IMG/VR virus record: IMGVR_UViG_2537562015_000012
Source: a virus
Taxonomy: Duplodnaviria; Heunggongvirae; Uroviricota; Caudoviricetes
DNA: 18,580 bases
Reading direction: 5' to 3' (one strand)
Numbering within the stretch: position 1 is the stretch's first letter; each line of letters begins with the position of its first letter. The position numbers are program-made. Positions 9,001 through 12,000 of the stretch are shown here, piece after piece.

Positions 9001-12000
9001 TGGCTACCCATTGCGGCATGGGCGAATGTTGAAATGTGTATTGACGGCGATACCGTTGAAATCATTATTCCCTGCGTGGCAAGTCGGGACGGCTGTATAG
9101 AGCCAACAGATATGGCAGCAGAAATCAGAGAGGTAAAACATGAACAATAACTATTGCATACTGCAGGGAATGACCAGAACGGAGCGCGAAGAATTAAAAA
9201 GTTTCGCTACACAGTGCGGGAATGCTGGCGACATCCAAAGTCTGGAACGCACTTTAATTATGATTGCGCACTGGATGCGCCAGGGGCAAAGAGTTTCATT
9301 TACTGAATATGCCAGCCAGTGGACAGAGGCACAGCGCGAACGGAGCGACGGTAATCACTCAACACCCGAAATGGCGAAGCAATGGCCTTTCAGTGGTAAA
9401 CGCTGTATCAGTCCCGGTGGTTCAGATTATTACCCTGCTGGTGTGGGAGATGAGCCATGTTGTGACGAGACTGAAATCCGCCACGCAGTGACAGTAATTA
9501 CCGCTGAATACCCACAATTTAACCTTGACGGACTGGCGCTCCACAACCGGAATGCGGACTGGGAAAACCCGCTTGATAACCCGTCATTTATCGTATCGGC
9601 GAAAAGCTGCCTGAGATGGATCAGAGACAACGGGATGAGTAATGCCCAGATTGAGAGCTTCCCGCAGGATAACCCCACATCTGACACGTTGAAGCATGAA
9701 GTGGAGCGATATAACCAGATAAACCACCAGCACAGTGATCACCCGCACTATATCCCCAACGGAGCATTTATTGCGGCGATGGTGGCAAGCGGCTACAAGG
9801 TTAAGCCAGCGGGAAGAATGAACGCATTTTTCAATATTTCAAAAAAGGGATTATGTGCTGCTATGGGTAAAAATTAAATAAATGGTACAGGTCTGTACAG
9901 GTGGGGAGAGGTCATTTTTACCCACCTGTACCACCTGCAGGCCGCGCCACACAAGGGTTTGTGACATGGTGGTACAGGTGGTACAGCAAAAACAGCGATT
10001 TTCTTTATAAGGTATGTTTTGCTCATCTGGCAGACGGAGGTATTCGCTGCGGTTTGGCACATAGCCCAGAACAGCAAAGAGTTTTACGAGACTTTTGTAA
10101 AATCCAGTGTACAAGGGCGTGACGTTTTTGAAGGTGAGCACTACGAAATTTTCGTAGTTCAAAAAATAGCCTCTGAGATGTTGTTATGCCTGTTCAGCAA
10201 ACCATCCGCATAGCTGATCGCGAATCAAATTACCAATGGAGCCAGAAGCAAGGGCAGAACTGGAAAGCGCCTGCCGTGAAGAGTAATGCGACTCCATAAA
10301 TATAGTTTTTAGAGTCCATAAAAAAACTGTCAAAACCTGACATACAGAACGATGCCACCAGCTACTGAACGGTGGCATTTTTTTGTGCTATTTGTTTCAT
10401 ATTTTGCAATCACAATGATGAATGTTGCGTTTTATGAAACTATAATGACTGTTGTTTTATACAGTTCTAAGGGGGGCGTTATGGCTATTTCAGTAAAGCC
10501 AGTATTGATAAGTGAGAAGCAAATGGAAGCGATAAAGAAAATTCAGGAGGAGCAGCGTAAAAAATCAGAGGTAGGAGTTGCGCCAACGATCCACGAAATT
10601 GCTCGGGGATTAATGGATAAGGCGCTGGCTTACACTTTAACTGGACGTGGGTAAATTTATGGCTACGTGGCAACAGGGTATTAATTCTGGTGGTTTTCTG
10701 GCTGGCATCGGTGCGCAAAATGAGAATGCGCCAAAGGCAAGCGACATTAACGCAACGCTTGGTCTGATCCGCGAAAACAATGAACTGGCTCGCTCAGGTG
10801 CAAATAACGTTGCTCTGACAGGTCTTCGTGGTCTGGCTGGAGTTGCTGACATTTATAAGCAGCAGCAACAGCAGGAACGTAAAGCGGCATTCCAGAAAGG
10901 TTATGCAGATGCTTATGCGTCCGGTGACAGGGAGCAGATGCGTAATCTTATTACAGCATTCCCAGAAGAGTTTGAGGAAGTCCGTAAAGGGATGAGTTAT
11001 GTCGATGATGCTCAAAGGGATGATTATGGCAATCTGGCGCTCAAAGCACAGGTAGCCTCATCGCTTGGTCAGGGCGCATTTGGCAGGTTCATGATGGATA
11101 ATGAGCAGGAGATGCGTCGTTTAGGTATCCCTCCAGAAACTATTGCTGAAATGCAGGTTAATGACCCGCAGGGCTTCCAGCATTTCGCAGGTAATCTGGC
11201 GCTGTTTTCTCTCGGTCATGAGAAGTATTTCGATATCAAAGATCAAATGGAAGGTCGTCGACTTGAGCAAGGGCGACTGGATGAAAGTATGCGTCAGGCT
11301 GACATGGAGAACGCGAGAGGATGGGCAAATATCCAGAACGCTCAACTAGACAGGGCTCAGCGAGCACAAATTCACTCAGATGAGATGGGATTGAAGCTAA
11401 TGGAGCTGGGGCAAAAAGGTAAGCCGTCAGCAGACTTAATTAAGGGATTAAATTCTGACATTACCAATTTTGGCAAAAATTATAACTCTGTCAGAGCGGC
11501 GGCAAACTCTCTGCAAGCCCTTAGCAAGGTAAATACTGGCGCTGCCCAACTTGGGATTATCTTCAACTACATGAAATCTCTTGACCCGCAGTCAGTCGTT
11601 CGTGAAGGCGAACAGGTTCAGGTAATGCGGTCTGATGGCATATGGGGACAAATCAAAGGATACATAGACCAGCTTAATGCTGGAAACGGCCTGTCGCAGG
11701 AGGCAAAGGATAACATTGTTAACGCCGCAAAAATCAACGCCAATGCTATGGGGCAGCAGTTTAACCAGCAGGTTGACGAGTATCTCGATACATATGGAGA
11801 AACTATTCCTCAGGGGCTAAGAAAAAGCCTTGAAAGAAGGAAAGCGAAGCTATTTGACGATGTTTCCGGGCAGCCTACATCACAGGCTGGCACTGGACAG
11901 GCAAAAGCGGCAACCGGAGGAATATCAGAAGGCGCAACGGCAACCAACCCTAAAACTGGTCAGAAAATCATTTACAGGAACGGAAAATGGCAGCAAATGT

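What the first reader, a model, noticed from the sequence alone, without database searches (positions are those of the whole stretch)
10000..10480. Noncoding stretch with direct repeats and a strong terminator upstream of the large operon: possible small RNA or regulatory leader
Seen: about 480 bp without a convincing ORF (the only candidate is a 64-aa frame with a TTG start and no Shine-Dalgarno). It contains imperfect direct repeats A(C/G)TCCATAAA at 10291-10300 and 10313-10322 and a clean rho-independent terminator at 10353-10384, followed at once by the operon promoter region. Established: P4-family elements encode small regulatory RNAs. Inference: the terminator may end a small RNA or insulate the operon from primase-module transcription.
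Basis: partly seen in the sequence, partly recalled or inferred. Interest (0 to 1): 0.4.

Follow-up and report, generated by a model that had tools for sequence, protein, structure and literature searches.

The report
Gene fossil, terminator, SOS-box promoter
The "noncoding stretch" is an ordinary junction inside an E. coli phage satellite: a decayed gene and its transcription terminator, followed by a conserved promoter carrying a textbook LexA (DNA-damage) operator; nothing points to a small RNA gene.

Summary
The sequence features are real. No credible ORF lies in 10000-10480, the two 10-mers sit at the stated coordinates, and a strong intrinsic terminator lies at 10351-10384 (z = -5.25). 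The direct repeats are at chance level (15% of shuffles) and are degraded in relatives.

The window is an EcCIMP1-like phage-inducible chromosomal island between yicC and dinD. The stretch is a composite:
- 10081-10299 is a decayed cargo gene: a frameshifted anti-repressor fragment plus the C-terminus and stop codon of a gene that is intact in a relative.
- Next come its 3' UTR and terminator.
- 10385-10480 is a promoter conserved across Enterobacterales, with TATAAT at 10441-10446 and a canonical LexA box (CTGT-N8-ACAG, 10449-10464) directly after it.
- The promoter drives a 57-aa gene and homologues of P22 ejection proteins gp20 and gp16.

Rfam finds no RNA family here. The island's real small RNAs (C4-like, isrK) are at 4433-4660.

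In about 60 related loci, non-homologous terminators sit at a fixed distance upstream of this promoter whenever the upstream gene is co-directional. They are never there when it is divergent. This supports insulation, not an sRNA.

LexA control is inferred, not shown. It parallels the LexA-controlled operon I of SaPIs. Verdict: ordinary regulatory architecture, modest interest.

The parts
9884..9987 (.). Second cluster of GGTACAGG iterons (5 copies in direct and inverted orientation). Probable replication-origin or crr-like site for the DUF5906 primase. It lies just upstream of the finding.
   Evidence: 24 matches at <=1 mismatch against 8.1 expected, clustered at 8774-8875 and 9884-9987; relatives with other primase types carry different iterons at the same place (GGTTCAGTT; ATCCCTAC).
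10078..10081 (.). Module junction. Upstream sequence travels with the primase type. Downstream sequence is shared by about 500 E. coli genomes whatever the primase.
   Evidence: most hits start at query position 199-202. Alignments.
10118..10227 (+). Frameshifted fragment of a phage anti-repressor gene (phrog_1726), corresponding to residues about 49-88 of the intact protein. It is a pseudogene remnant.
   Evidence: tblastn finds two pieces in different frames (RDVFEGEHYEIFVVQK, then VVMPVQQTIRIADRES) with an in-frame stop between them. Searches give the phage homologues and their family.
10230..10299 (+). Remnant of the C-terminal coding end and stop codon (TAA 10297-10299) of a cargo gene that is intact (152 aa) in relative L007.
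   Evidence: (...KSNATP* shared; 44% identity over 43 aa). EcCIMP1 has a premature TGA at 10261-10263.
10290..10322 (+). The two direct repeats, GACTCCATAAA (10290-10300) and GAGTCCATAAA (10312-10322). They are at chance level and not conserved as a pair.
10329..10343 (.). Small palindrome TGTCA-N5-TGACA just before the terminator. It is conserved in Escherichia-type loci only. Function unknown.
10351..10384 (+). Intrinsic (rho-independent) terminator: 8-9 bp stem, 11-nt loop, U7 tail.
   Evidence: Its fixed position relative to the promoter across lineages is shown.
10395..10439 (.). Imperfect inverted repeat TTTCATATTTTGCAA ... TTGCGTTTTATGAAA across the -35 region. Its motifs (TTTCAT, TGCAA/TTGC, TGAAA) recur in all genera. 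Candidate operator for an unidentified regulator.
   Evidence: alignment. Inference only.
10441..10446 (+). -10 hexamer TATAAT of the operon promoter. The -35 is weak (ATGAAT at 17-nt spacing).
   Evidence: conserved 31-40 nt upstream of the ATG in most of the 72 loci analysed. The consensus scan missed it because of the poor -35.
10447..10466 (.). LexA (SOS) box GACTGTTGTTTTATACAGTT, with core CTGT-N8-ACAG at 10449-10464. It starts 1 nt after the -10 hexamer and covers the expected transcription start.
   Evidence: 2 matches in the window against 0.24 expected; the other is the known dinD box. PSSM score 19.9 against a training range of 15.1-28.4; the core is invariant in every Escherichia-type copy read.
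10471..10476 (+). Shine-Dalgarno G-run. It has 6 G here and 4-5 G in relatives.
   Evidence: The extra G puts ATG 10352 in frame and creates the spurious 100-aa ORF (10352-10654) that RefSeq annotates in some genomes.
10481..10654 (+). Conserved 57-aa first gene of the operon: extended N-terminus followed by two helices. Function unknown.
   Evidence: No Pfam, NCBIfam, PDB or fold match.
10659..14083 (+). Homologues of the P22 ejection proteins: gp20-like (10659-12002, PF16928) and gp16-like (11987-14083, phrog_6704 / phrog_770).
   Evidence: The EcCIMP1 counterparts are shown.

Best explanation
The stretch is the junction between two modules of an EcCIMP1-like phage-inducible chromosomal island (PICI): the replication module and the 'DNA-transfer' operon.

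**What lies there, left to right.**
1. Origin-type iterons belonging to the primase (9884-9987).
2. A fossil cargo gene (10081-10299).
3. That gene's 3' UTR and intrinsic terminator (10300-10384).
4. A conserved sigma-70 promoter (10385-10480) with a perfect -10 hexamer, a weak -35 hexamer and a canonical LexA box abutting the -10.

**Proposed mechanism (all steps inferred from sequence and comparison).**
- Rightward transcription from the ash-primase-orf9140 operon runs through the iterons and the fossil gene. It stops at 10351-10384, so the downstream promoter is shielded from read-through.
- In undamaged cells a LexA dimer on 10447-10466 blocks initiation.
- DNA damage leads to RecA-stimulated LexA self-cleavage. 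The same signal induces SOS-inducible helper prophages.
- De-repression then starts an mRNA near 10453. It has a 5' UTR of about 28 nt, uses the SD at 10471-10476, and encodes the 57-aa protein and the gp20- and gp16-like ejection proteins.

The direct repeats have no role. No small RNA gene is present.

**Confidence by component.** Terminator is real: 0.9. It acts as gene end and insulator: 0.7. Promoter assignment: 0.8. LexA control: 0.5.
For: **Identity of the element.**
- RefSeq context is yicC-int...dinD.
- The gene set is the same as in the experimentally mobilised PICI EcCIMP1 (PMC11773190).
- The EcCIMP1 intergenic region aligns with window 10078-10480 at about 95% identity.

**Fossil gene.** One search shows a frameshifted anti-repressor fragment plus the shared C-terminus and stop of the intact L007 gene. 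Searches show a nonsense change in EcCIMP1 and nonsynonymous-dominated substitutions.

**Terminator.**
- z = -5.25.
- It is the only strong + strand terminator after 4504.
- At least seven unrelated hairpins sit at a fixed -100 to -129 from the ATG in other lineages.
- A terminator is present with a co-directional upstream ORF in 29-32 of 43 loci, and with a divergent one in 0 of 19.

**Promoter.** TATAAT, the neighbouring motifs and the SD align across 13 genome loci and 59 IMG/VR loci from Enterobacterales.

**LexA box.**
- The core matches CTGT-N8-ACAG exactly. Only two such sites occur in 18.6 kb, and the other is the dinD SOS box at 17693-17712.
- Its PSSM score lies inside the range of known boxes.
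- Only 15 of 202,000 positions in the loci fetched up to that point score >=15.
- The core shows no substitution in 9 distinct Escherichia-type copies, while the flanking promoter differs at 6-9% of sites.
- 500 of the 501 E. coli records that hold the 30-mer 10441-10470 have it within 2 mismatches. The two changes identified in the copies read (10447 and 10467) lie outside the 16-nt core.
- Two further lineages carry different but canonical boxes at the same position.

**Precedent.** SaPI operon I is LexA-controlled (PMC5052747, citing Ubeda 2007). The consensus CTG-N10-CAG is stated in PMC2994835.
Against: - There are no transcript or binding data of any kind.
- Most non-Escherichia relatives carry a site one base too short for LexA (CTG-N9-CAG, PSSM 5-12). 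The conserved element may therefore be read by another factor, and the LexA match in Escherichia could be secondary.
- The PSSM was built from 20 SOS boxes recalled from memory. Only the dinD box was independently confirmed in the window.
- The terminator stem carries uncompensated changes in L022 (A.C mismatch in the core) and in L024/L025. It is therefore not under visibly strict selection.
- 11 loci with a co-directional upstream ORF lack a detectable terminator.
- Orientation calls come from raw ORFs, and the loci are not phylogenetically independent.
- The -35 is poor, so an activator may also be required.
Confidence: 0.6

Rival explanations
1. The terminator is the 3' end of a small regulatory RNA. 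This could be an independent sRNA or a 3'UTR-derived, Hfq-type RNA covering about 10300-10384.
For: The 10300-10386 segment folds well: three hairpins, -23.7 kcal/mol, z = -4.2. It ends in a U7 tail preceded by A/U-rich sequence, as Hfq-dependent sRNAs do. The segment has few substitutions among E. coli copies, 2-6%. A TATAGT lies at 10301-10306 (sequence).
Against: - No Rfam family matches, even at E <= 10.
- No promoter-like site was found upstream. TATAGT has no -35 partner.
- Homology upstream of the hairpin is lost in L022 except for about 25 nt. It is absent outside Escherichia, where unrelated terminators directly follow upstream stop codons.
- There are no compensatory changes.
- The low divergence matches that of the neighbouring fossil gene (3-4%), so it reflects recent ancestry rather than constraint.
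Confidence: 0.08
2. The terminator is only a fossil of the decayed cargo gene and has no present role. The CTGT-N8-ACAG site is an operator for a PICI- or helper-encoded regulator (for example the 57-aa protein) and not for LexA.
For: - The hairpin lies 51 nt after the fossil gene's stop codon and serves an intact gene in L007.
- Stem mutations are tolerated.
- The CTGTAT...AT.CAG element is conserved in many genera with N9 spacing, which is incompatible with LexA.
- The -35 region carries conserved repeated motifs that suggest another DNA-binding factor.
Against: - L022 keeps the terminator although no gene or fossil precedes it.
- Unrelated terminators recur at the same distance from the promoter in other lineages, but only when the upstream gene is co-directional.
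- Three sequence-distinct N10 boxes each score as good LexA sites.
- No DNA-binding fold could be shown for the 57-aa protein.
Confidence: 0.22
3. The hairpin is an attenuator, or an antitermination target, in the leader of the operon. In this reading the real promoter lies upstream of 10351 and a helper-phage antiterminator (Q / gp23-like) allows read-through, as at lambdoid PR'-tR'.
For: A strong terminator just upstream of phage-late-type genes resembles the PR'-6S RNA-tR' layout (established knowledge). The probable helper is P22-like (PMC11773190).
Against: - The conserved promoter elements (TATAAT, SD) lie downstream of the hairpin in all lineages.
- Sequence upstream of the hairpin is lineage-specific junk or other genes.
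- About 30 loci have no terminator at all.
- No promoter-like site was found in 10081-10350.
Confidence: 0.05
4. The stretch encodes a small protein: the 64-aa + ORF 10019-10213, the 37-aa ORF 10186-10299, the 64-aa minus-strand ORF 10184-10378, or the 100-aa ORF 10352-10654 annotated in RefSeq.
For: The ORFs exist. PGAP annotates WP_014639841.1 (10352-10654 equivalent) in some genomes.
Against: - None has a family hit.
- Substitution patterns are dominated by nonsynonymous or nonsense changes.
- The 100-aa frame exists only where the SD G-run has 6 G. Most genomes have 5 G and annotate the 57-aa or 53-aa protein.
- The 64-aa ORF crosses the module junction, so its N-terminus differs between relatives.
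Confidence: 0.03

Closest known systems
EcCIMP1, a PICI of E. coli MP1 mobilised by the P22-like phage Kapi1 (PMC11773190)
   Same: The gene order is the same: int, HTH/AlpA-like, antA/antB, DUF4222, ash/icd region, primase, intergenic region, small gene, DNA-transfer / ejection-protein genes, IS1, PerC. The intergenic region 10078-10480 is about 95% identical. It includes the fossil gene, the terminator, TATAAT and the LexA box.
   Different: - The integration site differs (yicC-dinD here; tRNA-Thr next to proA in MP1).
- The primase type differs (DUF5906 with GGTACAGG iterons, against TOPRIM-DUF927 with GGTTCAGTT iterons).
- The window's operon lacks the DUF2824 (gp14-like) and gp7-like genes.
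- That paper contains no occurrence of 'LexA' or 'terminator' in its text.
SaPI operon I promoter, repressed by LexA (Ubeda et al. 2007, cited in PMC5052747)
   Same: A phage satellite whose helper-exploitation operon lies downstream of the replication module and is wired to the host SOS repressor. It therefore switches on together with helper prophage induction.
   Different: The host is Gram-positive, with a different LexA motif. That operon encodes terS, cpmAB and pti, not ejection proteins. LexA control was shown experimentally there and is only predicted here. There is no sequence homology.
E. coli SOS boxes such as uvrB (AACTGTTTTTTTATCCAGTA) and dinD (AACTGTATATAAATACAGTT)
   Same: A 20-nt palindromic site with the CTGT-N8-ACAG core overlapping a core promoter. 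The dinD box itself is present in the window at 17693-17712.
   Different: Binding has not been tested. The site sits on a mobile element. Orthologous sites in other genera are often one base too short.
Rho-independent terminators at module boundaries of phages and satellites (for example the terminator of isrK at 4490-4504 in this window)
   Same: A GC-rich hairpin plus a U-tract that ends a co-directional transcription unit.
   Different: The loop is unusually long (11 nt). The hairpin now follows a dead gene and not a live one.
P4 CI RNA / P1-P7 C4 antisense RNA and IsrK (Rfam RF01695, RF01394)
   Same: The island does encode them.
   Different: They lie at 4433-4660, 5.7 kb upstream. Nothing in 9700-10700 resembles them.
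P4 ori / crr iteron clusters (established knowledge of P4 replication)
   Same: Two clusters of a short repeated motif lie near the primase gene, and the motif changes with the primase type.
   Different: The motif is different (GGTACAGG, against P4's TGTTCACC from memory). The clusters are about 1.1 kb apart and both lie downstream of the primase. Origin function is untested.

Membership tests
Intrinsic (rho-independent) terminator | Stable GC-rich stem-loop | tested here: met
   -17.3 kcal/mol, z = -5.25, 0 of 200 shuffles as stable. The stem is 8-9 bp with 5 G-C pairs.
Intrinsic (rho-independent) terminator | Run of U immediately 3' of the stem | tested here: met
   Seven T at 10378-10384. 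The site is also listed by the scan.
Intrinsic (rho-independent) terminator | Lies at the end of a co-directional transcription unit | tested here: met
   + strand genes run from 4052 to 9877, followed by the fossil gene ending at 10299.
Intrinsic (rho-independent) terminator | Transcripts actually end there | not testable with these tools
   Needs Term-seq, 3' RACE or Northern blotting.
Small regulatory RNA gene (Rfam families, including C4 / P4 CI and IsrK) | Covariance-model match at or near the gathering score | tested here: not met
   no hit in the region at gathering threshold; at E <= 10 only bxd_4, SNORA18 and mir-308, which are eukaryotic chance hits far below threshold.
Small regulatory RNA gene (Rfam families, including C4 / P4 CI and IsrK) | Own promoter upstream of the terminator, conserved with it | tested here: not met
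   no promoter-like site in 10081-10350. L022 keeps only about 25 nt upstream of the hairpin; there is no homology upstream of the terminators in other genera.
Small regulatory RNA gene (Rfam families, including C4 / P4 CI and IsrK) | Structure supported by compensatory substitutions | tested here: not met
   the two stem changes seen (10353, 10373) are uncompensated. The sample is very small.
LexA-repressed (SOS) promoter of Enterobacterales | 16-mer CTG-N10-CAG, ideally CTGT-N8-ACAG with an AT-rich centre (PMC2994835) | tested here: met
   CTGTTGTTTTATACAG at 10449-10464. The pattern is expected 0.24 times in the window.
LexA-repressed (SOS) promoter of Enterobacterales | Overall similarity to known boxes (heterology-index type score) | tested here: met
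   PSSM score 19.9, against 15.1-28.4 for 20 known boxes. The matrix was built from boxes recalled from memory, and the true HI was not computed.
LexA-repressed (SOS) promoter of Enterobacterales | Box overlaps the core promoter or transcription start | tested here: met
   The box begins 1 nt after TATAAT (10441-10446), which is conserved across loci.
LexA-repressed (SOS) promoter of Enterobacterales | Box conserved in orthologous promoters | tested here: inconclusive
   The core is invariant in all Escherichia-type copies read. Canonical boxes also occur in L038-L040, L015, L016 and L072. Spacing is N9 in most other genera.
LexA-repressed (SOS) promoter of Enterobacterales | LexA binding and SOS induction | not testable with these tools
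   Needs EMSA or footprinting, and reporters in lexA mutants.
EcCIMP1-like PICI | Gene content and order (int, AlpA-like, antirepressor, ash/icd, primase, DNA-transfer genes, PerC; no capsid or terminase genes) | tested here: met
   Family description from PMC11773190.
EcCIMP1-like PICI | Helper-dependent excision and transfer | not testable with these tools
   Shown for EcCIMP1 only (PMC11773190).
Ribbon-helix-helix regulator (for the 57-aa first gene; considered as a possible autoregulator) | Beta-alpha-alpha fold or a family profile match | tested here: inconclusive
P4-type ori/crr iterons (for 9884-9987) | Clustered repeats of a short motif that co-vary with the primase type | tested here: met
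P4-type ori/crr iterons (for 9884-9987) | Primase binding and origin activity | not testable with these tools
   Needs replication assays.

The most novel reading that the evidence does not exclude
The conserved promoter plus small gene at 10385-10654 may be a terminator-insulated, SOS-switched (LexA) entry point to an exchangeable cassette. Through it, EcCIMP1-like PICIs would express their own helper-matched DNA-injection proteins:
- P22-type ejection proteins in Escherichia;
- internal virion proteins in Leclercia and Klebsiella;
- tape-measure proteins in Pantoea, Erwinia, Serratia and Chimaeribacter;
- a baseplate hub in Rahnella.

If so, this satellite family exploits helpers by supplying the DNA-delivery component of the virion. 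It would time that supply through the host SOS response and not through a helper-encoded inducer.
Probability: 0.3. Interest if true: 0.6.

Novelty: new member of a known kind. Interest (0 to 1): 0.3.

Why it matters
For the finding as posed, the result is deflationary. The stretch is not a hidden RNA gene. It is a gene fossil, a terminator and a promoter/operator region, and the "direct repeats" are noise.

It still has some value:
- It defines the control region of the only operon in EcCIMP1-type PICIs that resembles helper virion genes. The authors of the EcCIMP1 paper flagged those genes as the likely key to packaging and transfer.
- It gives a directly testable prediction: LexA represses that operon, as it represses SaPI operon I.
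- It corrects two annotations: the 100-aa ORF 10352-10654, and the "ash family" CDS that overlies the C4-like and isrK RNA genes.
- It shows that the promoter and small gene form a conserved backbone carrying swappable DNA-delivery genes across Enterobacterales. This side observation is more interesting than the original finding.

Tried and rejected
- **Rfam:** searched at gathering threshold on the whole window and at E <= 10 on 9700-10700. Nothing relevant turned up in the region.
- **Direct repeats as binding sites:** rejected after the shuffle test and the comparison with relatives.
- **Coding potential of four ORFs:** rejected.
- **P2 Ogr / P4 Delta-type activator site (TGT-N12-ACA) upstream of the -10:** I looked by eye and found none.
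- **Attenuator or antitermination reading:** rejected because the conserved promoter lies downstream of the hairpin.
- **Literature:** searches for the 16-mer and for PICI + LexA + SOS box found nothing for E. coli PICIs. A search for satellites carrying ejection or tape-measure proteins found only EcCIMP1.
- **Divergence comparison:** its small-gene and EcCIMP1-remnant columns were spoiled by truncated slices and are not used.
- **TGTCA-N5-TGACA palindrome (10329-10343):** it matches no operator I could name and is left unexplained.
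Full report
**1. What the window is**

A megablast of 9880-10480 finds the stretch in 506 of 5426 complete E. coli genomes, with 128 covering it in full. In strain 99-3165 the region lies in an island between yicC and dinD. The island holds an integrase, a small HTH protein, an antA/antB antirepressor, DUF4222, an "ash family" protein, a primase-helicase and two hypothetical proteins. Then comes an unannotated gap, a small protein, a "phage DNA ejection protein" and a large protein.

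Pfam and PHROGs confirm that 10659-12002 is a P22 gp20-type injectosome protein (PF16928, E = 2.5e-73). They confirm that 11987-14083 is a gp16-type DNA-transfer protein. Downstream lie an IS1, PerC (16767-17054) and the chromosomal dinD (Bro-N, 17744-).

The same gene order defines EcCIMP1, a PICI that the P22-like phage Kapi1 induces and transfers (PMC11773190). I fetched EcCIMP1 from the MP1 genome. Its intergenic region aligns with window 10078-10480 at about 95% identity. The element is therefore an EcCIMP1-like PICI with P4-like immunity features, not P4 itself.

**2. Checking the observation**

The two 10-mers are at the stated coordinates, and as 11-mers they match 10/11. They are not above chance. 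In dinucleotide shuffles of 10000-10480, 15% contain such a pair within 60 nt. Relatives change one or both copies, so the pair is 8/11 in EcCIMP1.

The terminator is real. It has an 8-9 bp stem, an 11-nt loop and a U7 tail, and folds at -17.3 kcal/mol with z = -5.25. On the + strand of the whole window, only the isrK terminator at 4490-4504 is comparable.

The ORFs in the stretch have no family matches. Their substitutions are mostly nonsynonymous or nonsense. The 100-aa ORF that RefSeq sometimes annotates (10352-10654) exists only because this copy has six G in the Shine-Dalgarno run, where others have four or five.

**3. Anatomy**

(a) *Iterons.* GGTACAGG occurs 24 times at <=1 mismatch, against 8.1 expected. 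The copies concentrate at 8774-8875 and 9884-9987, on either side of ORFs 8920-9877. Relatives with a TOPRIM-DUF927 primase have GGTTCAGTT arrays at the equivalent place. A relative with a P4-family primase has ATCCCTAC arrays. This is a primase-specific origin-type region, and the first 80 nt of the finding belong to it.

(b) *Module junction.* Most E. coli hits begin at query position 199-202, which is window 10078-10081.

(c) *Fossil gene, 10081-10299.* tblastn shows residues about 49-88 of a phage anti-repressor (phrog_1726) split over two frames with a stop between them. From 10230, the sequence matches the C-terminus and stop codon of a 152-aa gene that is intact in strain PKF4. EcCIMP1 has a further nonsense change at 10263. 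The first "direct repeat" contains this fossil gene's stop codon.

(d) *3' UTR.* It contains a small palindrome (10329-10343), followed by the terminator (10351-10384).

(e) *Promoter.* The promoter region begins immediately after the U-run.

**4. The promoter is the conserved part**

The 57-aa protein has homologues in Serratia, Klebsiella, Raoultella, Erwinia and other genera. I fetched 13 genome loci and 59 IMG/VR loci.

An alignment of the 150 nt upstream of the start codon shows a block of about 100 nt conserved in all genera. It contains:
- a TTTCAT...TGCAA motif;
- a second ATTKC...TGMAA motif;
- TATAAT;
- (A/C)CTGTAT...AT.CAG;
- a GGAGG-type SD;
- the ATG.

In the window, TATAAT is at 10441-10446 and the SD at 10471-10476. 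The -35 is poor (ATGAAT), which explains why the consensus scan missed the promoter.

Upstream of this block there is no homology between genera. Even so, many lineages carry a terminator there. At least seven unrelated hairpins were found (GCCACC..GGTGGC, CACCAC..GTGGTG, CCTCGC..GCGAGG, GCCCG..CGGGC, CCCGCC..GGCGGG, ACCGGA..TCCGGT, GCCCGC..GCGGGC). Their U-runs start 100-103 or 120-129 nt before the ATG.

Among about 64 distinct loci, I compared terminator presence with the strand of the nearest upstream ORF:

| Nearest upstream ORF | Terminator present | Terminator absent |
|---|---|---|
| Co-directional | 29 | 11 |
| Divergent | 3 | 19 |
| No ORF called | 0 | 2 |

The three "divergent with terminator" loci are the window type, where the minus-strand ORF is a spurious 96-aa frame. 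Counting them as co-directional gives 32 of 43.

The ORF calls are crude and the loci are related, so this is an association and not a formal test. It is nevertheless the pattern expected if the hairpin ends upstream transcription and shields the promoter. It is not the pattern expected for an RNA gene belonging to the conserved module. Relative L022 keeps the Escherichia hairpin although only iterons, and no gene, precede it.

**5. The LexA box**

Directly after the -10 lies GACTGTTGTTTTATACAGTT, with core CTGT-N8-ACAG at 10449-10464. This pattern occurs twice in the window against 0.24 expected. The other site, 17693-17712, is the SOS box of dinD, which is annotated and matches the box I remembered.

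A PSSM built from 20 E. coli SOS boxes scores the site 19.9, within the training range of 15.1-28.4. The matrix was built from memory, which is a caveat. The next non-SOS site in the window scores 12.3. Across 202 kb of the loci fetched up to that point, only 15 positions reach 15.

The 16-nt core has no substitution in any Escherichia-type copy I read, while the rest of the promoter differs at 6-9% of sites. In 501 E. coli records the 30-mer 10441-10470 is identical in 157, has one mismatch in 296 and two in 48. The two polymorphisms I identified in the copies read are 10447 G/A and 10467 C/A, both outside the core. In one genome an ISEc53 insertion has split the box.

Two other lineages have different canonical boxes at the same position: CTGTATCGTTATACAG in L038-L040, and CTGTATAAAATAACAG in Pantoea sp. 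1.19, Lonsdalea and L072.

Against this, most Klebsiella-, Serratia- and Erwinia-type loci have CTGTATAAATATCAG. That site is one base short of the CTG-N10-CAG rule (PMC2994835) and scores 5-12. LexA control is therefore plausible for this window, but it is not a family-wide invariant, and another factor may read the conserved element.

The precedent is SaPI operon I, the packaging and interference operon of staphylococcal satellites, which LexA represses (PMC5052747, citing Ubeda 2007). I found no paper that links LexA to E. coli PICIs.

**6. The small RNA hypothesis**

- Rfam finds C4 antisense RNA (79.9 bits) at 4573-4660 and isrK (60.5 bits) at 4433-4510, but nothing in the finding.
- A permissive search of 9700-10700 returns only three eukaryotic chance hits.
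- The 3' UTR folds well (z = -4.2), but most of that comes from the terminator.
- No promoter was detected upstream.
- Upstream homology is lineage-specific.
- The stem changes seen are uncompensated.
- Divergence in the 3' UTR (2-6%) is similar to that in the fossil gene (3-4%), so the conservation reflects recent shared ancestry.

I put this reading at about 8%.

**7. The 57-aa protein**

**8. Mechanism proposed**

Transcription of the early and replication genes runs rightward through the iterons and the fossil gene. It stops at 10351-10384. The downstream promoter is kept off by LexA bound at 10447-10466. DNA damage inactivates LexA and also induces SOS-inducible helper prophages. The 57-aa protein and the ejection-protein homologues are then expressed from an mRNA that starts near 10453.

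Shown by sequence and comparison:
- the position and strength of the hairpin;
- the fossil nature of 10081-10299;
- the conservation of the promoter;
- the presence and local invariance of a canonical SOS box.

Inferred: termination in vivo, the transcription start, LexA binding and SOS induction.

**9. Verdict**

This is an ordinary kind of regulatory junction, a new member of a known kind, with a testable and apparently unreported LexA link in an E. coli PICI. Interest 0.3.

The more interesting lead is tangential. Across genera, the same promoter and small gene precede different virion DNA-delivery genes: ejection proteins, internal virion proteins, tape-measure proteins and a baseplate hub.

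Noticed in passing
window 10385-14083; loci L009-L021 (about 3990-8000 in each): The conserved promoter and 57-aa gene head operons whose large genes differ by genus, yet all encode virion DNA-delivery proteins:
- P22 gp20/gp16-like ejection proteins in Escherichia (plus gp14-like DUF2824 and a possibly gp7-like protein in EcCIMP1);
- internal virion proteins (phrog_418, phrog_1044) in Leclercia and Klebsiella;
- tail tape-measure proteins (phrog_1107) in Chimaeribacter, Pantoea and Serratia;
- a baseplate hub (phrog_196) in Rahnella.

This PICI family seems to carry helper-matched injection machinery as a swappable cassette.
   Followed up: partly
window 8774-8875 and 9884-9987: Two clusters of GGTACAGG iterons (11 copies at <=1 mismatch) flank ORFs 8920-9877, just downstream of the DUF5906 primase. 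Relatives with other primase types have different iterons at the same position: GGTTCAGTT in L005, L006, L009 and EcCIMP1, and ATCCCTAC in L022. This is probably an ori/crr-like pair.
   Followed up: partly
window 4433-4510 and 4573-4660: Rfam isrK (60.5 bits) and C4 antisense RNA (79.9 bits) lie inside the 355-aa ORF 4052-5119 that RefSeq calls an 'ash family protein'. Other copies annotate this region as an ash pseudogene plus an Icd-like protein. The long CDS is probably an over-call across a P1/P4-type c4-icd immunity locus.
   Followed up: no
window 17693-17712: The chromosomal dinD SOS box AACTGTATATAAATACAGTT sits 32 nt upstream of the dinD start (17744). It served as an internal positive control for the LexA scan.
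   Followed up: yes
window 10471-10476 / 10352-10654: The G-run in the Shine-Dalgarno region varies in length (6 G here, 4-5 G elsewhere). The sixth G creates an in-frame upstream ATG inside the terminator, which produces the 100-aa 'hypothetical protein' WP_014639841.1 annotated in some RefSeq genomes.
   Followed up: yes
L026 (E. coli UPEC129) at the position of window 10460/10461: An ISL3-family element (ISEc53) is inserted inside the LexA box, which cuts the promoter off from the operon.
   Followed up: no
L023 (E. coli RMDEC465) 4001-4066: A 66-nt fragment matching window 10304-10368 (second repeat, palindrome and left arm of the terminator) occurs without the right arm. It lies in an unrelated island that carries Panacea-domain, DUF2213, ProQ/FinO and PerC genes. 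It looks like a recombination scar.
   Followed up: no
window 14086-14840: An IS1 copy lies directly after the gp16-like gene, as in EcCIMP1. It is followed by minus-strand ORFs (14901-15326 Bax1-I-like, 16061-16516) and by PerC.
   Followed up: no
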